A DNA stretch of 64,000 nt, taken from contig JAVHLL010000007.1 in NCBI GenBank assembly GCA_031082155.1, forward strand, positions 1,459 to 65,458. Reading direction: 5' to 3'. The notes below the pieces were generated by a model. It did no database searches and was not told the origin of the DNA. It saw only the letters and a program-made list of their open reading frames with translations. Numbering within the stretch: the stretch's first letter is position 1; each line of letters starts with the position of its first letter. Of the stretch, positions 2,512-37,095 are shown piece by piece. A program made the position numbers and the translations under genes. The stretch is from Thermodesulfovibrionales bacterium (GTDB taxonomy: Bacteria > Nitrospirota > Thermodesulfovibrionia > Thermodesulfovibrionales > SM23-35).

Positions 2512-3927
2512 ATGCAGTCACAACAAGAGTACCCGGTTGATAAGCAAAAAGCTGTTTCTGTAAAGGAGGTAAAAAAAAGAGAATGTAATCCCGAACGACA
2601 TATCTTGACCGCCAGTTCAAATGGCACTTACAATAAAGCTGAAGCGATACCGCAGGATTTAGAATTAATATCTTATCTTATAGATAGTTCAGGAGAGGAA
2701 AAGATGAAGGGAGCAGTTAGAGCAAAAGGGACATGTCCGATTTGTGAGGGAAAGTTCCAACAAATATTAAAGATTGGATTTATCTGTCCTCGATGCAAAA
2801 CGACACCGAAAAAATTCTATGTCGATATTTCGTATAAGGGACAACGTATAAGGATTTTCTCGGACACAACAGGACAGGTGTTAGATACCTATCAGAGAGC
2901 TTTAACACTCCTCTCACACATCAATCAAGAATTGAAAAACCACAGTTTTGATCCCTCTCGATATGTTCAGGCAGAATTGCAGGGGTTTTATGTTCAGAAT
3001 CTTCTCGATAGATTCCTGAAAGACAAAATCAGCAGCATTTCTCCAAGCCGTATTAATCATTATACCCGTTATACTGACCTTGCAAAAGAGTTCTTTAAGA
3101 CAAAAGATGTTCGAGAAATACGTAGGATAGACATCTCTGATTATAAACGGCATTTGATAGAGAAGTATTATCCGAATCAGCCCAAACAAGGAAAGACCTT
3201 AAAAAATGTCATTGATCATTTCAAAACTTTCTTATTCTATTGCAAAAATGAATATGAAGTTATAGAGGTCGTTCCATCGTTCCCAGATATCGAGGTTCAA
3301 CCGTATCAATTCAAATGGGTATGTCAGCATGATCAAATCAAACTATTTGAGCTTGTTGAAGCTCATGATAAGCCCTTTATTGCTTTTCTTATGTTGCACG
3401 GATGTAGACCTGGTGAGGCAAGAGCTTTAAGATGTAAGGATGTAGATTTAAAACAGCAGACAGTAACAATATCTGCAACCTTCTCTGATGAAGTATATAA
3501 GGAAAGAAGGAAGGGTAGAGGGGCACAAGCAGTTATCGTTCCGATACATCCTGAATTGTATAGCTACTTCGAAGAGAGAATCAAAAACAACTTACCCGAG
3601 GCATACGTTTTCACAAAACGAAACGGACAGCATTACACTAAGGATGATATCCGCAGATTATGGGATAAGGTGAGAGAGAAAGCAGCCATAGGGAAGGATT
3701 TGAGATTATATGATGTGACGCGTCATAGCTTTGCATCTCAGCTTATAAATGCTAATACATCGCTTTACAAAGTCTCTCGTTTGCTGGGGCATAGTTCTGT
3801 AAAGATGACAGAGAAGTATGCTCATCACAATATTACTGATCTAAAAATAGACATAGAGAAAGTGTCATTGAAAATAGAAGAGACTGTCACCAAACTGTCA
3901 CCAGGTCAATCCAAGCATTTAAAATAA
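2512..3927 (+). CDS. Tyrosine recombinase / phage-type integrase with N-terminal zinc ribbon
   Basis: Catalytic signature is present: 'HGCRPGEARAL' (Arg), 'TRHSFASQL' (His-x-x-Arg) and 'LLGHSSVKMTEKYAH' (His...Tyr). 'CPICEG...CPRCK' forms a zinc ribbon upstream. The internal Met65 (nt 2704) has an AGGAG upstream and may be the true start. Confidence 0.9.
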   Translation: MQSQQEYPVDKQKAVSVKEVKKRECNPERHILTASSNGTYNKAEAIPQDLELISYLIDSSGEEKMKGAVRAKGTCPICEGKFQQILKIGFICPRCKTTPKKFYVDISYKGQRIRIFSDTTGQVLDTYQRALTLLSHINQELKNHSFDPSRYVQAELQGFYVQNLLDRFLKDKISSISPSRINHYTRYTDLAKEFFKTKDVREIRRIDISDYKRHLIEKYYPNQPKQGKTLKNVIDHFKTFLFYCKNEYEVIEVVPSFPDIEVQPYQFKWVCQHDQIKLFELVEAHDKPFIAFLMLHGCRPGEARALRCKDVDLKQQTVTISATFSDEVYKERRKGRGAQAVIVPIHPELYSYFEERIKNNLPEAYVFTKRNGQHYTKDDIRRLWDKVREKAAIGKDLRLYDVTRHSFASQLINANTSLYKVSRLLGHSSVKMTEKYAHHNITDLKIDIEKVSLKIEETVTKLSPGQSKHLK

Positions 3928-3959: not shown

Positions 3960-3996
3960 AGGGGTTCAAAACCCCTCGTGCCTACCATATAATTTT
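3960..3996 (+). repeat. att-like direct repeat, copy 1: tRNA 3'-end fragment (T-arm + acceptor + CCA)
   Basis: AGGGG-TTCAAAA-CCCCT (T stem-loop), then CGTGCCT-A-CCA, then TATAATTTT. No matching 5' tRNA half lies upstream. It matches 8134-8170 at 33 of 37 positions. Confidence 0.7.
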
Positions 3997-8133: not shown

Positions 8134-8170
8134 AGGGGTCCAAAACCATTCGTGCCTACCCTATAATTTT
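8134..8170 (+). repeat. att-like direct repeat, copy 2 (degenerate)
   Basis: AGGGGTCCAAAACCATTCGTGCCTACCCTATAATTTT matches 3960-3996 at 33 of 37 positions. The T-stem pairing is lost. The by-eye compositional shift to GC-richer core genes begins just to its right. Confidence 0.6.
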
Positions 8171-9312: not shown

Positions 9313-10218
9313 ATGGACAGGAGAACGTTTCTCAAGTCAGCAGCAATAGCAGGATGCGGGCTGCTCGCCGGTGAACGGTTCTCTAACCTGACACCTGTTT
9401 GGGCAGCAGAACAGTTTGACCTCGTAGTCGCGCAGGGCACCGGAAAATCACCGGAAGCCATCACAAAGGCTGCGCTTAATGCAATCGGTGGCATAAAGAA
9501 ATTCATCTCCCGTGGGGATGTGGTCGTCGTCAAACCGAATATAGGCTGGGACAGACTGCCGGAGCAGGCAGCCAATACAAATCCTGAAGTCGTCGCAGCA
9601 ATCGTGAAGCTCTGCTTCGACGCAGGGGCAAAAAAGGTCAAGGTATTCGACAGGACATGCAATGATCCGAGGAGGTGTTATAAACAGAGCGGGATAGCAG
9701 ATGCCGTGTCAGCCCTCGGTGCAGAAGTCAGTTTCATTGACGACAGGAGGTTCAGGGACATCCCGATAAAAGGACAGGTGCTGAAAACATGGCCGCTCTA
9801 CAGGGATATTTTTGAAACAGACAAGATCATTAATGTTCCCATTGCGAAACACCATGGTCTCGCAAGACTCACCATGGCAATGAAGAACTGGATGGGCGTC
9901 ATGGGCGGGAACCGCGGGAGCATCCACCAGAAGATCGGAGAAAGTCTTGCAGATATTTGTCTGGTGATCAAACCAACACTGACGGTCCTTGATGCCGTCC
10001 GTATTCTTACGGCAGACGGTCCGCAGGGAGGGAACCTGAAAGATGTAAAGAGACTCGACACAGTGATTGCGGGAGTCGATCAGGTCGCAGTGGATACTTA
10101 CGGCGCCACCCTTTTCGGCATGCAGGGTTCTGATCTCTCATACGTTAAGGCGGGAGCCTCCATAGGCATAGGGAATATGGACCTTTCCAGAATGAAGATC
10201 AGGAAACTGAATGTCTAA
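9313..10218 (+). CDS. DUF362 domain protein with Tat signal
   Basis: Start reset to the ATG at 9313 (AAGGAGG 5 nt upstream). 'MDRRTFLKSAAIAG' is a twin-arginine signal, and 'VVVKPNIGW' is the DUF362 core. Confidence 0.75.
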   Translation: MDRRTFLKSAAIAGCGLLAGERFSNLTPVWAAEQFDLVVAQGTGKSPEAITKAALNAIGGIKKFISRGDVVVVKPNIGWDRLPEQAANTNPEVVAAIVKLCFDAGAKKVKVFDRTCNDPRRCYKQSGIADAVSALGAEVSFIDDRRFRDIPIKGQVLKTWPLYRDIFETDKIINVPIAKHHGLARLTMAMKNWMGVMGGNRGSIHQKIGESLADICLVIKPTLTVLDAVRILTADGPQGGNLKDVKRLDTVIAGVDQVAVDTYGATLFGMQGSDLSYVKAGASIGIGNMDLSRMKIRKLNV

Positions 10219-11761
10219 AAAATATCTCAGGAAGATTTCGCAGGGGGTTTTCCTCTTCCTGTTCCTCTTTCTTTTCATCCAGACTGAATCAAAGGGTAAC
10301 GATATCCTCGGCTATCCCGTCAGGCTGTTCCTCGACTTCGATCCGCTCATTTTTCTCGCAACGCTCTTTGCTTCGCACGGGGGGGAAATACCTGCGGCAT
10401 TTTTTCTCTCTCTTGTCACGGTCTTCGTGACTGTTGTCCTCGGCAGGGTGTTCTGCGGGTGGATCTGTCCTCTCGGAACGCTCAATACCGTTGCAGGATC
10501 ATTCAAAAAACGGCATCCCGGTCCGATGCATCCCCATTGGCACAAGATAAAGTATTTTATCCTTATTGTGCTTCTCGCATCCTCGGTCTTTACCCTTCAG
10601 CTCGCCGGGATTATGGACCCCCTCTCACTCCTGATCAGATCCTTCTCTTTAAGCGTCTATCCAATGCTGAATTATGGAATCAGGGGAGTATTCGATGCAA
10701 TTTACCATACGGATATCCCCGCAGTGGTGAATCCCTCTGAAGCGGTATATGGATTTCTGAAGAGGACGCTGCTCGCGTTTCAGCAGCCATATTTTCTGCA
10801 GGCTTTTTTTATCGGCAGCATATTATTCCTCATCCTGGGACTGAACCTGATCGAGAGAAGATTCTGGTGTAAATACCTTTGCCCTCTCGGGGCACTGCTC
10901 GGTCTCTGTTCCCGGTATTCCCTGCTGAAACGGGAGGTGAGTGAAGGATGCACGGGTTGCGGAATATGCTCGAATGCCTGTCAGGGAGGTGCCCTGTCCG
11001 AAAAAAGCGAGACCTGGAAGCATACTGAATGCCTTGCCTGTTTTCACTGTGATGATATCTGTCCCCAGAACGCCGTCAGTTTTGGATTCGGGCGGCCGGA
11101 AACACAGTCCCTGGATCTCGGCAGGAGGCAGGTCTTAGTCTCAGTGCTCTCGGGGGTTCTTGCTGTCCCGTTATTCAGGTCAGCGCCTTTTTCAAAATCC
11201 GGGTATTCTGATCCCCACCTGCTAAGGCCGCCCGGAGCGCTTGAGGAGAAAGAATTCCTCAGGAGATGTGTAAAATGCGGCGAGTGCATGAAGGTATGTA
11301 TAACCAACGGCCTTCAGCCAACTCTTGTTGAATCAGGAATTGAAGGCATCTGGTCTCCAAGGCTTATCCCAAGAATCGGACACTGCGAATATCGCTGCAC
11401 CCTCTGCGGCCAGGTCTGTCCTTCCGGTGCGATCAGAGAACTGCCTCTTGAGGAAAAGATGAAAGTGAAGATAGGGCTGGCTATGATCGACAAGGGCCGT
11501 TGCCTTCCTTACGCTCACGCGGTCCCCTGCATTGTCTGCGAAGAGATGTGCCCTACATCTCCCAAAGCCATATGGCTGGAGGAAATCGCAGTGAAAGGAA
11601 GAGACGGGAAAACCCTGCTTGTCAAACAGCCGCATATAGACCTCGATCTCTGCATAGGATGCGGGATCTGCGAAGCGAAATGCCCTGTCGGCAGCCGGGC
11701 GGCGATCTATGTGACGAACATCGGGGAATCAAGATCGAGAGAGAACCAGCTGCTTATTTAA
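10211..11761 (+). CDS. Membrane polyferredoxin (NapH/MauN-like 4Fe-4S binding protein)
   Basis: 516 aa with TM helices carrying 'CGWICPLGT' and 'CKYLCPLGA'. Several CxxCxxCxxxCP ferredoxin motifs. It overlaps the DUF362 gene by 8 nt. Confidence 0.8.
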   Translation: MSKKYLRKISQGVFLFLFLFLFIQTESKGNDILGYPVRLFLDFDPLIFLATLFASHGGEIPAAFFLSLVTVFVTVVLGRVFCGWICPLGTLNTVAGSFKKRHPGPMHPHWHKIKYFILIVLLASSVFTLQLAGIMDPLSLLIRSFSLSVYPMLNYGIRGVFDAIYHTDIPAVVNPSEAVYGFLKRTLLAFQQPYFLQAFFIGSILFLILGLNLIERRFWCKYLCPLGALLGLCSRYSLLKREVSEGCTGCGICSNACQGGALSEKSETWKHTECLACFHCDDICPQNAVSFGFGRPETQSLDLGRRQVLVSVLSGVLAVPLFRSAPFSKSGYSDPHLLRPPGALEEKEFLRRCVKCGECMKVCITNGLQPTLVESGIEGIWSPRLIPRIGHCEYRCTLCGQVCPSGAIRELPLEEKMKVKIGLAMIDKGRCLPYAHAVPCIVCEEMCPTSPKAIWLEEIAVKGRDGKTLLVKQPHIDLDLCIGCGICEAKCPVGSRAAIYVTNIGESRSRENQLLI

Positions 11762-11791: not shown

Positions 11792-11956
11792 AGGGTTATA
11801 GCTCCATTTCTGAAGACAGCTCACGGGTAACTTCGATAAGGCTGAAGACGAAGCGGAAGCCTCAAGTTTGGATTGAATGAAAACATTGCAGTCAGATACC
11901 AGCAGGGACAGAGACAAAGGTAGTTTAGCTGGCTTCAGAAATGGAGCTATAACCCT
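11792..11956. repeat. Structured repeat element, copy 1 (candidate ncRNA of unknown class)
   Basis: A 29-bp closing stem (11792-11820 / 11928-11956, one A/G mismatch) encloses 107 nt. The interior shares a 44-nt core (39/44 identical) and the same architecture as 35919-36086, with compensatory changes. Confidence 0.6.
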
Positions 11957-11974
11957 ACTTTTCAGACTGCAATA

Positions 11975-12601
11975 CTATCCCTCTTTTTTCTCCCGTTTCA
12001 TCATCCGTTCCCTGAACCACCGCATGATATCGTCGTATGATGGCGGGGTGATGAGAAAGACCTCTATGTCCCTGGGGAATTGCAGTTTAGCCCTGTCTTC
12101 GTCCTTCAGGATCAGCAGGCCTGCTTCAGCTTCGGAAAGGTTTTTATCGATCACTTCGATCATATGATCGAGCCTTCTGGTCGCACTCTCCGTATAATAT
12201 TCAATAATTTTCGTAAAAACCTCATGGGTATATATCACTCTGAGGCAATTCCCCCAGTCGGTAAACGGCCCCAGGATATCCTGATCCTCAAGGGGGATGA
12301 GAACCCCTCCCTCCTCGCTTTTCTTTTTGATAATCTGAGGTATCCGTTCATTTATCCGGGACAGGACAGCGAGGGAATCGTCATCAGTCCCGGTGATGAT
12401 TTCACAGAATATCTTCTTTATCTTCCCGGCTGTCTCCATCTTCTCAATCTGCGCTATCGCCTGATCCCAGTATTTCCGGACAAGATCAGTGTATTCCTCC
12501 GGAGCATCTTCAAGGGAATACATGTTTGCGACACAATAGAGTTTTCTCTTACCGGCAAAGTTCCCGGCTTCCGGTTTATGAATCTGTCCGATTTCAACCA
12601 T
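11975..12601 (-). CDS. Hypothetical protein, last gene of the EPS operon
   Basis: 208-aa ORF with normal charged composition, 22 nt downstream of the ligase gene. The antisense ORF 12080-12727 has Phe/Leu/Ser-rich shadow composition. Confidence 0.55.
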   Translation of the reverse strand: MVEIGQIHKPEAGNFAGKRKLYCVANMYSLEDAPEEYTDLVRKYWDQAIAQIEKMETAGKIKKIFCEIITGTDDDSLAVLSRINERIPQIIKKKSEEGGVLIPLEDQDILGPFTDWGNCLRVIYTHEVFTKIIEYYTESATRRLDHMIEVIDKNLSEAEAGLLILKDEDRAKLQFPRDIEVFLITPPSYDDIMRWFRERMMKREKKEG

Positions 12602-34964: not shown

Positions 34965-34986
34965 TTTACCCTTGCAGCTAACGAAA

Positions 34987-35116
34987 GGCAGGATATAGTA
35001 TTATCGCGGTTTCTTTTTGACAATAGTCGAAGACAGTAATTGAAAATAAAGAGGCGAAAGCCTCGGAGTCCCGAAAGCTTTCGGGACGAGAATGAGCGAC
35101 AATACCCTATCCTGCC
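34987..35116 (-). promoter_or_regulatory. Structured intercistronic element between the ABC ATPase and permease genes
   Basis: A 21-nt imperfect inverted repeat (34987-35007 / 35096-35116, 18/21 complementary) encloses two hairpins: GAGGC-GAAA-GCCTC (35051-35064) and GTCCCGAAAGCTTTCGGGAC (35068-35087). Confidence 0.45.
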
Positions 35117-35127
35117 TTGATAAAATC

Positions 35128-35865
35128 TCACAATTGCTCCTTCAACATCCTTCCCGTGAGTTTCAAATATACCTCTTCGAGATTTCCCCCGTGCATACTC
35201 ATGAGCTTTTGTGGTGAATCGATTGTTATTATCTTTCCCGAGTCCATAATTGCTACCCTGTCGCAGAGCACTTCCGCTTCTTCCATATAGTGTGTGGTAA
35301 GTATGAGAGTTGTATTGTTTGCCTTGAGATGATTCAACTTTTCCCATACAGACCGCCTGCTGTGAGGGTCCAGACCAGTCGTAGGTTCGTCGAGGATCAG
35401 CAGTTCGGGATTATTGACCAGGGACCGTGCAAGAATCAGTCTCCGCTTCATACCTCCCGAGAGCTGCTCTATTTTTACGTCTGACTTCTCCTTCAGATCA
35501 ACGAAAGAAAGAAGTTCCCCTGCACGGTGAGTCGCAGACTGTTTCCCGATATCAAAATATCGTGCATAAACAATCAGGTTCTCGAATACGGTGAGATCAG
35601 GGTCGAGATTGTCTTCCTGCGGCATGACCCCGACCCGCGCTTTTATTGAACTCGGCTTTTCAGTCACATTCAGCCCGAAAACAGTCACTTCACCTGAAGT
35701 CGGAGGCATAAAACACGAAATAATTCTCATTACAGTCGTCTTCCCGGCCCCGTTCGGCCCAAGAAAACCGAAGCATTCACCCTTCTGTATCTGACAATCT
35801 ATGGCATCAACAGCCGTCAGGGAACCATATGCTTTCGTCAAATTTTTTATGGCAACAATGTTCAT
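35128..35865 (-). CDS. ABC transporter ATP-binding protein (DrrA/NodI-like)
   Basis: 245 aa. Walker A 'GPNGAGKTT', signature 'LSGGMKRRL' and Walker B 'LLILDEPT' are present. Confidence 0.9.
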   Translation of the reverse strand: MNIVAIKNLTKAYGSLTAVDAIDCQIQKGECFGFLGPNGAGKTTVMRIISCFMPPTSGEVTVFGLNVTEKPSSIKARVGVMPQEDNLDPDLTVFENLIVYARYFDIGKQSATHRAGELLSFVDLKEKSDVKIEQLSGGMKRRLILARSLVNNPELLILDEPTTGLDPHSRRSVWEKLNHLKANNTTLILTTHYMEEAEVLCDRVAIMDSGKIITIDSPQKLMSMHGGNLEEVYLKLTGRMLKEQL

Positions 35866-35918
35866 ATTATCAATTGTACTCTAAATTATAGTATCCATCC
35901 CATTCAAAATATTAGATA

Positions 35919-36086
35919 TAAGGGTATAGCTGGGTTTCCAAATCGAAATCACGGGTAACTTCGATGAGACCGAAGACGAAGCGGAGGTCTCATCCCCGGA
36001 TATTTCAATACCATTGAAAGTCAGCAAAAGTTTTACAGAGAAATAAAGGGAGTTTATTTCGATTTGGAAACCCAGCTATACCCTTA
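35919..36086. repeat. Structured repeat element, copy 2 (candidate ncRNA of unknown class)
   Basis: A perfect 31-bp closing stem (35919-35949 / 36056-36086) encloses 106 nt. It carries the same conserved core and hairpins as 11792-11956. Confidence 0.6.
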
Positions 36087-36222
36087 GTTTCTCCCAGGTT
36101 GAAATACTTGTTTTTAACAGGTCTGATAAAATTTATACCAATCATCCGAAAATTCAAAAGTGATTCAGTCACTTCAACAGAATATTTTGACAAAGATATC
36201 GCATGAGGAGTATTTTTACAGT

Positions 36223-37095
36223 ATGAATAAGTCATTCCGCCTCTTGCTTCTTTTGTTCGTCTTCGCCTTTGCATTTTCCTGCGCCAGGGGAATACAGCCT
36301 CCGCAAAAACCTGCGAAAATTGCAGTGGTTCTCGGTGCGGGAGCTGCAAGGGGCTTCGCCCATATCGGTGTGTTGAAGGTGCTTGAGGTAAATCAGATTC
36401 CGGTGCATATGATTGTCGGGACAAGTGCAGGCAGTTTTGTCGGTTCACTTTATTCTTACGGATTTAATGCATTCCAGCTCCAGAAGCTGTCTTTCGATCT
36501 GCAGAAAGACGATATCCTAGACCTGACAGTTCCCGATAACGGGTTTATCAAGGGTGAAAAACTCGGAAAGTATATAAATCACATGACAGGCAATACTCCC
36601 CTGGAAAAGCTGAGGATTCCTTTCTATGCAGTTGCAACAAATATTCAGACCGGGAAGGAAGTAGTATTCGGAAGCGGCGATACAGGGACCGCGGTGAGGG
36701 CAAGCTGTGCAATTCCCGGCATCTTCAGGTCTGTGGAGATTTCGAATAAATTCTATGTCGACGGAGGTGTCTCAAGTCCTGTTGCGGTCGATGCAGCGAG
36801 ACGGCTTGGAGCAGATATTGTCATCGCTGTCGATATCTCAGGAGAGTTAGATTCGACAGTACCTAAGGGCACGATCGAGACTATCATCCACTCGGTCAGC
36901 ATCATATATGCAAAACTTGCGGCGATACAGGTTGCGAAAGCTGACGTGGTAATAAGACCAAAGGTAGGTTCTCTCGGAGGAGCCGATTTCACAAAAAGAC
37001 ATGAGGCAGTCCTTGAGGGAGAAAAAGCAGCACTGGCCGTCCTCCCGAAAATCCAGGAGACCGTCAACAAATTAAGAAGCGAGGGCAGGCTGTAA
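36223..37095 (+). CDS. Patatin-like phospholipase (lipoprotein)
   Basis: Start reset to ATG 36223 with lipobox 'FAFSC'. 'GAGAARGFAHIGVL' and 'GTSAGS' are the patatin motifs; 'DGG' is downstream. Confidence 0.85.
   Translation: MNKSFRLLLLLFVFAFAFSCARGIQPPQKPAKIAVVLGAGAARGFAHIGVLKVLEVNQIPVHMIVGTSAGSFVGSLYSYGFNAFQLQKLSFDLQKDDILDLTVPDNGFIKGEKLGKYINHMTGNTPLEKLRIPFYAVATNIQTGKEVVFGSGDTGTAVRASCAIPGIFRSVEISNKFYVDGGVSSPVAVDAARRLGADIVIAVDISGELDSTVPKGTIETIIHSVSIIYAKLAAIQVAKADVVIRPKVGSLGGADFTKRHEAVLEGEKAALAVLPKIQETVNKLRSEGRL

What the first reader, a model, noticed from the sequence alone, without database searches (positions are those of the whole stretch)
35919..36086. Copy 2 of the structured element sits in a divergent promoter region (ABC exporter / patatin)
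Seen: the perfect 31-bp closing stem ends 53 nt upstream of the ABC ATPase start (35865, - strand) and 136 nt upstream of the patatin start (36223, + strand). Both copies lie in the same orientation on the + strand.

In this copy the inner end of the left arm (ATCGAA) can also pair with the conserved TTCGAT of the core. In copy 1 the corresponding GAAG can pair with CTTC of the same conserved segment. So both copies allow two mutually exclusive foldings.

Inference: the genomic contexts differ (3' of operons for copy 1, 5' leader region for copy 2). That argues against a gene-specific riboswitch. It favours an autonomous small RNA, a protein-binding/processing site, or a mobile structured repeat. 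The alternative pairing could be a switch, but that is speculative.
Basis: partly seen in the sequence, partly recalled or inferred. Interest (0 to 1): 0.65.

Follow-up and report, generated by a model that had tools for sequence, protein, structure and literature searches.

The report
Small mobile hairpin repeat (MITE-like) in Nitrospirota
The structured element between the ABC-transporter and patatin genes is most likely a 164-bp non-coding mobile DNA repeat that inserted at a TA site in this lineage only, not a regulator built for those genes; it resembles the Correia elements of Neisseria in design but belongs to an undescribed family.

Summary
A perfect 31-bp inverted repeat (35919-35949 / 36056-36086) encloses a 106-nt core, and a second copy lies at 11792-11956. 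I found 11 full and 2 truncated copies, in this window, a Nitrospirota MAG and sediment metagenomes. All are intergenic, next to unrelated housekeeping genes. At the patatin/ABC site, close relatives with the same gene order lack the element. The closest relative with an intact site has a single TA, where the window has TA-[164 bp]-TA. A sister lineage keeps only one arm plus about 10 nt of core, in flipped orientation. This is a MITE-like element with Correia-like architecture: long terminal inverted repeats, a directional conserved core and a TA duplication. It matches no Rfam family and nothing in the plasmid, phage or viral collections. Two features are unusual. The arms differ between copies yet stay complementary (19 of 27 pairs changed on both sides). 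The 5' core, with a small covarying hairpin and a nearly invariant 14-nt loop, is almost invariant. The proposed alternative-pairing switch is not conserved. What the core does, which enzyme moves the element and whether it is transcribed all remain unknown.

The parts
35919..35920 (.). TA, left copy of the target-site duplication (also the outermost pair of the 31-bp palindrome)
   Evidence: The empty site in L016 reads GAAAC-TA-TGCC. The window (reverse complement) reads GAAAC-TA-AGGG...CCCT-TA-TATC.
35921..36084 (+). Copy 2 of the element proper (164 bp, AGGG...CCCT)
   Evidence: Covariance-model hit of 175 bits. Boundaries come from comparing filled and empty sites.
35919..35949 (+). Left arm (terminal inverted repeat)
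   Evidence: The outer part AGGGTATAGC is semi-conserved across copies; the inner part varies, and its partner changes to match.
35949..35965 (+). Nearly invariant 5' core, TCACGGGTAACTTCGAT
   Evidence: The overlapping 19-mer CACGGGTAACTTCGATGAG (35950-35968) is identical in 9 of 12 instances; the other three differ at 1-2 positions.
35963..35994 (+). Hairpin P2: stem GATGAGACC/GGTCTCATC around the 14-nt loop GAAGACGAAGCGGA (35972-35985)
   Evidence: Two stem pairs change on both sides across copies and there is one G.U intermediate. The loop is identical in 9 of 12 instances, each of the others differing at 1 position.
35995..36055 (+). A-rich 3' half of the core, less conserved, with small conserved blocks (CATT, AGTC, AGTTTA)
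   Evidence: Alignments A3/A6. No supported secondary structure.
36056..36086 (+). Right arm (terminal inverted repeat)
36085..36086 (.). TA, right copy of the target-site duplication
11792..11956 (+). Copy 1 of the same family, between the convergent 3' ends of a polyferredoxin gene (10211-11761, +) and a 208-aa ORF (11975-12601, -)
   Evidence: 187 bits. The same site is occupied in L013 and L015 and lacks the element in L014.
35128..35865 (-). ABC transporter ATPase gene (context only, not part of the element)
   Evidence: Pfam ABC_tran, E = 6e-35.
36223..37095 (+). Patatin-like phospholipase gene (context only, not part of the element)
   Evidence: Pfam Patatin, E = 3e-26.

Best explanation
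Copy 2 is one member of a previously uncatalogued family of miniature, non-coding mobile elements (MITE-like) found in a narrow clade of Nitrospirota. Each unit is about 164 bp. It has arms of about 30 bp forming terminal inverted repeats, around a directional 105-nt core. The family spreads to unrelated intergenic sites. At this site it inserted at a TA dinucleotide and duplicated it, which is the footprint of IS630/Tc1-mariner-type (or IS5/IS427-type) DDE transposases acting in trans. The enzyme is inferred, not shown. The insertion landed between the two divergent core promoters of the ABC ATPase and patatin genes in this lineage only, so it is not an ancestral regulatory part of those genes. 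Once inserted, the long arms make the element prone to DNA rearrangements. These include inversion of the core between the arms, internal deletion to a single arm, and precise loss across the hairpin base. The observed states fit all three. The complementarity of the arms is actively maintained. My preferred mechanism, which is inferred, is DNA-level concerted evolution: recombination or heteroduplex repair between the two arms, the same process that flips the core. The nearly invariant 5' core and the small covarying hairpin P2 point to a selected function in single-stranded form. This could be a site needed for the element's own propagation or a host-factor or RNA-level signal, but that function is unknown. 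Any transcript reading through would form a duplex of about 30 bp. Such a duplex is a plausible RNase III substrate, as shown for Correia elements, so an effect on neighbouring genes would be a side effect of insertion.
For: Eleven full and two truncated copies exist. None shares flanking genes with the window copies. The neighbours are unrelated housekeeping genes and no partner gene recurs. At the copy-2 site the gene order patatin<->ABC-ABC2-LigA-CinA is conserved, but the element is absent in L008, L009, L010, L011, L016, L017 and L018. L016 shows a clean empty site with a single TA against TA-element-TA in the window. L012 keeps one arm plus about 10 nt of core in inverted orientation. 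L012 and L016 are each other's closest relatives in both flanking genes, so L016 has lost the element precisely. At the copy-1 site the element is present in L013 and L015 and absent in L014. L002 is truncated and has no right arm. L005b is also flanked by TA on both sides. The closing stem has 19 of 27 pairs with changes on both sides and 97% of cells paired; 0 of 500 shuffles reach this. Mismatches in the arms show no strand bias: 6 G.U, 3 A.C and 6 other. That fits DNA-level maintenance. A second hairpin-enclosed family in the same genomes shows clear core inversion at an orthologous site, and two assemblies agree on it. The published Correia element has the same architecture and behaviour: inverted repeats plus a conserved directional core, a TA target, single-repeat fragments carrying partial core, RNase III substrate activity and inversion (PMC2649163, PMC10969869, PMC2229807).
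Against: No parent insertion sequence or transposase with matching ends was found in the 256 kb held. The TA duplication rests on one clean filled/empty pair. TA is its own reverse complement, so in other copies it cannot be separated from the palindrome. The ACAGAGGG...CCCTCTGT subfamily, which includes copy 1, shows no clear duplication. The arms are less conserved than the core, the reverse of a typical MITE, in which the transposase-binding ends are the conserved part. The covarying P2 hairpin and G.U-preserving changes in a small 5' helix hint at an RNA-level constraint that a purely selfish DNA element does not require. Copy number per genome is unknown: two in 64 kb here, and none in about 41 kb sampled from a MAG whose neighbouring proteins are 84-85% identical.
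Confidence: 0.7

Rival explanations
1. It is a family of structured small-RNA genes (trans-acting or protein-binding) that happens to be multi-copy. The long stem is a processing or stability helix, and the nearly invariant 5' core and P2 loop are the functional site.
For: The 5' core is nearly invariant while the arms and the 3' core differ by 20-25% between copies. P2 covaries at two pairs, giving four allele combinations and a G.U intermediate on the + strand. A 4-bp helix keeps pairing through G-C/G.U changes that work only on the + strand. Variable cells in helices 1-3 show 10 G.U against 4 A.C.
Against: There is no Rfam match. No promoter or terminator consensus lies in or next to either window copy. 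The element is absent from the same site in relatives whose neighbouring ABC protein is 84-94% identical, with a TA-duplication footprint. Truncated copies exist. The core orientation is flipped in L012. The G.U/A.C bias is not significant, and within the long stem alone it is 6 against 3. This reading can also coexist with the MITE reading, as a MITE-borne RNA.
Confidence: 0.13
2. It is an inverton: a DNA switch flipped by a site-specific recombinase. It would turn the divergent ABC and patatin genes (and other neighbours) on or off by reorienting a promoter or terminator in the core.
For: The core is flanked by long inverted repeats. It is inverted in L012 relative to the window at the same site. 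Four of ten sites are divergent promoter regions. A sister family shows inversion at an orthologous site. A tyrosine recombinase gene is present in the window at 2512-3927.
Against: The arm sequences differ at many positions between the two copies in one genome, so a dedicated invertase would have no common site. No promoter consensus was found in the core. At least three copies lie between convergent 3' ends, where a switch has nothing to drive. No recombinase gene lies next to any copy. Precise presence/absence with a TA duplication is a transposition signature, not an inverton signature. The three orthologous copies at the copy-1 site all share one orientation.
Confidence: 0.07
3. It is a cis-regulatory leader (riboswitch or attenuator) for the patatin or ABC gene that works by switching between two foldings.
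For: It lies 136 nt upstream of patatin on the same strand. In copy 2 a 6-bp alternative helix can be drawn.
Against: The element is absent from this leader region in all close relatives with the same genes. The same element lies 3' of genes elsewhere. The alternative helices are not conserved and do not covary. There is no Rfam match.
Confidence: 0.02

Closest known systems
Correia repeat enclosed elements (CREE / NEMIS) of Neisseria
   Same: Both are non-coding units of about 155-165 bp. Both have terminal inverted repeats of 26-31 bp around a conserved, directional core. Both insert at TA with duplication and are scattered in intergenic regions, often 5' of genes. Both show strain-level presence/absence, decay to single repeats carrying partial core, and inversion of the element. 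The transcript hairpin is a (here potential) RNase III substrate (PMC2649163, PMC10969869).
   Different: There is no sequence relationship: the CREE core-end motifs CCGGTACGG and TCAGGACAA are absent from the element sequence read. The host phylum differs (Nitrospirota against Neisseria only). Here the arms vary between copies and covary, while the core is the most conserved part, whereas in CREE the repeats themselves are the conserved hallmark. No IHF site or end-generated promoter was identified here.
IS630-mobilised bacterial MITEs such as RUP of Streptococcus pneumoniae
   Same: Both are small TIR elements that insert at a TA target, presumably mobilised in trans by a DDE transposase (PMC2229807).
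   Different: For RUP, the similarity of its ends to IS630-Spn1 is documented. No parent IS has been found for this element.
REPINs (paired REP sequences mobilised by RAYT transposases)
   Different: In REPINs the arms (REPs) are the conserved part and the loop is short and variable. No RAYT (Y1 transposase) gene lies next to any copy here. REPINs make no TA duplication.
Invertons (invertible promoters flanked by inverted repeats)
   Same: Both have inverted repeats flanking a segment of about 100-200 bp that is found in both orientations.
   Different: Here there is no conserved recombinase site, no adjacent invertase, no promoter consensus, and transposon-like insertion polymorphism.

Membership tests
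Bacterial MITE (non-autonomous TIR element) | Small (<300 bp) and non-coding | tested here: met
   The unit is 164 bp. The only ORF that starts in the core (copy 1, 11877-12167) has no start codon at the same position in copy 2.
Bacterial MITE (non-autonomous TIR element) | Terminal inverted repeats | tested here: met
   Arms of 29-31 bp, at least 90% complementary where measured; 97% of closing-stem cells paired across all 11 full copies.
Bacterial MITE (non-autonomous TIR element) | Target-site duplication seen by comparing filled and empty sites | tested here: met
   A TA duplication at copy 2 against the empty site in L016. Only one clean pair is available. The copy-1 comparison with L014 is not clean.
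Bacterial MITE (non-autonomous TIR element) | Multiple dispersed copies in unrelated genomic contexts, with insertion polymorphism | tested here: met
Bacterial MITE (non-autonomous TIR element) | A cognate autonomous IS with matching ends that supplies the transposase | not testable with these tools
   None was found in the 256 kb held.
Bacterial MITE (non-autonomous TIR element) | Ends conserved among family members (transposase binding site) | tested here: inconclusive
   The outer AGGGATAyrGC is semi-conserved. The rest of the arm varies, with compensating changes in the partner arm.
Correia element (CREE) | Sequence homology to the 26-bp Correia repeat and the CREE core; restricted to Neisseria | tested here: not met
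   The core-end motifs named in PMC2649163 are absent from the sequence read, and the host is Nitrospirota. Architecture only, not membership.
Curated RNA family (Rfam 15), including riboswitches and ribozymes | A covariance-model match at or near the gathering score | tested here: not met
   No hit at gathering threshold. In E-value mode only chance-level miRNA-model hits to the long hairpin appear.
Inverton | The segment is found in both orientations between its inverted repeats | tested here: inconclusive
   There is one case, between lineages (L012 against the window). It was not tested within a population.
Inverton | A dedicated invertase and a shared recombinase site in the repeats; an orientation-dependent promoter | tested here: not met
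   No adjacent recombinase. The arms differ between copies. No promoter consensus.
REPIN / REP-RAYT | Conserved REP arms and an associated RAYT gene | tested here: not met
   The arms are variable, and the neighbouring genes checked with Pfam show no Y1 transposase.

The most novel reading that the evidence does not exclude
The element is more than selfish DNA. It would be a mobile cassette carrying a selected functional RNA (or single-stranded DNA) module: the nearly invariant 45-nt 5' core with the covarying P2 hairpin and its 14-nt loop. Its long arms would also serve as recombination substrates that flip the module. That would make a transposable, orientation-switchable regulatory unit, a 'mobile inverton' or MITE-borne riboregulator, in Nitrospirota.
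Probability: 0.18. Interest if true: 0.7.

Novelty: new member of a known kind. Interest (0 to 1): 0.38.

Why it matters
It removes a false lead. The structure upstream of the patatin and ABC genes is a lineage-specific insertion, not a conserved regulator. It also documents a mobile-element family in Thermodesulfovibrionia-like Nitrospirota. I found no MITE reports for these largely uncultured organisms in the literature searched. The family offers a natural test case for how long inverted repeats stay complementary, by selection on a hairpin or by recombination-driven concerted evolution. It also shows how such elements invert, decay and are lost precisely. Practically, these roughly 30-bp perfect palindromes could break or mis-orient metagenome assemblies, and could be mistaken for structured RNAs in motif screens.

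Tried and rejected
- **Rfam:** gathering-threshold and permissive scans found nothing meaningful.
- **Viral contigs:** exact and degenerate core patterns gave 0 hits.
- **Plasmid and phage collections:** distant blastn gave no match.
- **The window's own contig:** three look-ups to extend sampling found nothing on record.
- **Synteny among copies:** none.
- **Conservation beyond the hairpin:** the flanks do not align across copies. A GGTTGAAATA-like motif to the right of a few copies also occurs at the L014 site that lacks the element, so it is flank, not element.
- **Partner gene (transposase, RAYT, reverse transcriptase, recombinase) next to copies:** none.
- **Small ORF in the core:** the ATG in copy 1 is not conserved in copy 2.
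- **Sigma-70 promoter or intrinsic terminator in or next to the element:** none above the shuffle expectation.
- **Alternative-pairing switch:** not conserved and no covariation.
- **Solitary arms or a larger element with the same ends in 256 kb:** none.
- **Interruption of the L002 copy by an insertion:** rejected, because no right arm lies downstream.
- **Target duplication at the copy-1 site:** the comparison with L014 is not clean.
- **Strand assignment from G.U against A.C counts:** 10 against 4 overall and 6 against 3 in the long stem, which is not decisive.

Full report
**1. The observation**

The region holds a perfect 31-nt inverted repeat, 35919-35949 paired with 36056-36086, around 106 nt. 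As RNA the + strand folds at -75.8 kcal/mol, z = -10.9 against dinucleotide shuffles. The - strand folds at -74.9 kcal/mol, z = -9.9. So the fold energy comes almost entirely from the palindrome and does not identify a strand.

The ABC ATPase gene (35128-35865, -) starts 53 nt from the left arm. The patatin gene (ATG at 36223, +) starts 136 nt from the right arm. A second copy lies at 11792-11956 in the same orientation. Its 30-nt stem has a different sequence, but it shares the core.

**2. The family**

No Rfam family matches, either at gathering score or in permissive mode.

I scanned for the conserved core (GGTAACTTCGAT, a gap of 3-12 nt, then GAAGACGAAGCGG):
- Two places in one Nitrospirota MAG (JBFLXP01; L001 is a full copy, L002 is truncated).
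- Five places in sediment metagenomes (L003-L007).
- Nothing in viral contigs.

A covariance model built from eight copies scores full copies at 151-205 bits. It added a second, inverted copy in L005, and orthologous copies in L013 and L015. The window itself holds only the two copies, even with the filters off. The total is 11 full and 2 truncated copies.

Homologs of the flanking proteins are annotated as Nitrospirota or Thermodesulfovibrionales. That places the window in this group.

**3. Anatomy (alignment A6)**

- **Closing stem.** It has 27 pairs. Nineteen show changes on both sides, 97% of cells are paired, and 0 of 500 shuffles reach the observed values. Sliding the partner by one column drops pairing to 47-48%.
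- **5' core.** This block, TCACGGGTAACTTCGAT, is nearly invariant.
- **Hairpin P2.** It has a 7-9 bp stem in which two pairs covary. The allele combinations seen are G-C/U-A, A-U/C-G, G-C/C-G, and an A-U/U.G intermediate. The stem encloses the 14-nt loop GAAGACGAAGCGGA, which is identical in 9 of 12 instances; the other three each differ at one position.
- **3' core.** This A-rich half is 20-25% divergent between copies. It has small conserved blocks and no supported structure.
- **Boundaries.** The flanks do not align across copies, so the unit ends at the base of the hairpin.

**4. Context**

No copy shares flanking genes with the window copies. The neighbours checked include MFS transporters, Smr, a thioesterase, RtcA, NamZ, Fe-S proteins, a molybdate transporter, a TOBE-domain protein and NadC. 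No transposase, reverse transcriptase or recombinase lies next to any copy.

All copies are intergenic. Four lie between divergent starts and at least three between convergent ends. In both of these settings, orientation relative to the genes carries no information.

**5. Orthologous-site tests, the decisive evidence**

*Copy-2 site.* The gene order patatin<->ABC ATPase-ABC2-LigA-CinA is conserved in relatives whose ABC ATPase is 84-94% identical. Their spacer is 73-191 nt against 357 nt in the window, and the model finds no copy there.

L016 is the relative with the most similar ABC protein (94%). It gives a clean empty site, GAAAC-TA-TGCCTAATATT. The window, read as the reverse complement, has GAAAC-TA-[AGGG...CCCT]-TA-TATCTAATATT. 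This is a 164-bp insertion (35921-36084) with a TA target-site duplication.

L012 retains the left arm followed by AAACTCCCT, the reverse complement of the last ~10 nt of the core, and then the right flank. That equals a core-flipped element that later suffered a deletion between CCCT repeats.

L012 and L016 are each other's closest relatives in both flanking genes, at 91.7% and 96.3% nucleotide identity. The window and L012 share the insertion. L016 must therefore have lost it precisely, or acquired an empty allele. Slippage between the two TA copies at the base of a perfect hairpin would produce exactly this result (inference).

*Copy-1 site.* The element is present in L013 (neighbouring protein 92% identical) and L015 (83%). 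It is absent in L014 (85%), which has a 32-nt spacer. L014 and L010 come from the same MAG, which lacks the element at both sites and throughout the roughly 41 kb sampled.

*Decay.* L002 is a truncated copy with no right arm downstream.

These are the properties of a mobile, dispensable element. They do not fit a conserved regulatory part of the neighbouring genes.

**6. How the arms stay complementary**

The window's copy 1 and L013 are orthologous. They have the same flanks and share a derived 3' core signature. Yet they differ by three double, pair-preserving changes in the long stem and two in P2. With 11-14% divergence in the core and flanks, neutral decay would give about 0.1 such pairs (my estimate). 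So pairing is actively maintained.

Mismatches within the long stem show no strand bias: 6 G.U, 3 A.C and 6 other. This gives no sign of selection on one RNA strand.

A second hairpin-enclosed family in the same genomes lies at window 34985-35118. At an orthologous site its core is unmistakably inverted between its arms in L010/L011, compared with the window and L017/L018 (alignment score 109 inverted against 35 direct). Two independent assemblies agree on this.

Recombination between the arms would both flip the core and, through heteroduplex repair, homogenise the arms. That is my preferred explanation for the "covariation" of the long stem, but it is inferred. It does not easily explain P2, whose covariation points to a genuine single-strand hairpin under selection.

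**7.

The ATCGAA/TTCGAT helix exists only in copy 2. The GAAG/CTTC helix is in a different register, is broken in 4 of 11 copies, and scores exactly like the shuffled controls. There is no sigma-70 promoter or intrinsic-terminator consensus in or next to either copy above the shuffle expectation. The switch idea is not supported.

**8. Comparison with what is known**

The closest analogue is the Correia repeat enclosed element of Neisseria. It has:
- 26-bp inverted repeats around a conserved directional core, commonly 153-157 bp in total;
- insertion at TA with duplication;
- presence/absence between strains;
- single repeats with partial core that arise by deletion;
- RNase III binding or cleavage of the transcript hairpin;
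- documented inversion (PMC2649163, PMC10969869, PMC2229807).

The element here works like a CREE in architecture and behaviour. It is not a member: there is no sequence relationship and the host phylum differs. It also differs in that its arms are the variable part and its core the conserved part.

A TA target also characterises IS630-mobilised MITEs such as RUP, but no parent IS was found here. I found no report of MITEs in this group: two literature searches were empty or irrelevant, and the 2024 MITE review does not mention Nitrospirota.

**9. Verdict**

This is a new MITE-like family of Correia-type design (confidence about 0.7). Copy 2 is a lineage-specific TA insertion between two divergent promoters.

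What is shown:
- dispersal to unrelated sites;
- insertion polymorphism;
- one TA duplication;
- decay to truncated copies;
- one core inversion;
- maintained arm pairing;
- a small covarying internal hairpin.

What is inferred:
- the type of transposase;
- the recombination-based maintenance of the arms;
- RNase III sensitivity of read-through transcripts.

What is unknown:
- the function of the nearly invariant 5' core;
- whether the element is transcribed.

Noticed in passing
window 34985-35118 (spacer between the ABC ATPase and ABC-2 permease genes); L010 10729-10895, L017 1770-1922, L016 1352-1462, L012 4528-4638: A second, different hairpin-enclosed element family. It has 23-nt arms (AAGGCAGGATAGGGTATTGTCGC) around a core with two GC-rich hairpins. 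The second hairpin is followed by a T-run, so it looks like a terminator in the sense of the ABC operon. The fold is -61 kcal/mol, z = -7.3. At the orthologous site the core is inverted in L010/L011 and internally deleted in L016/L012. It could act as an orientation-dependent terminator between the two ABC genes.
   Followed up: partly
L015 4252-4365: Another member of that second family (25-nt arms AACAGAGCAGATGCAGTATCAGCGC, core TCATTCTCG...CTCCGAGG...). It sits about 20 nt upstream of the family-1 copy at the copy-1 site, so these elements cluster. The outer arms of the two families share a GGATAGGG-like motif, which hints at related mobilising enzymes.
   Followed up: partly
L005 4159-4330 (+) and 5611-5782 (-): Two family-1 copies in inverted orientation, 1.3 kb apart, bracket an Smr-domain gene and a 4HBT thioesterase gene. 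This is a composite-transposon-like arrangement. The second copy lies 40 nt downstream of rtcA (RNA 3'-phosphate cyclase).
   Followed up: no
window 2512-3927, 3960-3996 and 8134-8170: A 471-aa tyrosine recombinase (Phage_integrase domain) is followed directly by a 37-nt sequence resembling a tRNA 3' end (GGGGTTCAAAACCCCTCGTGCCTACCA). That sequence recurs at 89% identity 4.2 kb downstream. ARAGORN calls no tRNA at either place. The repeats may be attachment-site remnants of an integrated element carrying MerR/HicB-like, M24 peptidase and PAS-domain genes.
   Followed up: partly
window 36160-36222: The longest patatin ORF starts at GTG 36160, and some relatives are annotated that way. However, more distant homologs and a GAGGAG ribosome-binding site support the ATG at 36223. 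The 63-nt difference explains the apparent spacer discrepancies between loci.
   Followed up: yes
window 35866-35918 (- strand): A perfect TATAAT hexamer lies about 22 nt upstream of the ABC ATPase ATG. The element inserted just upstream of the expected -35 position. The core promoters of both divergent genes therefore seem to have been spared.
   Followed up: no
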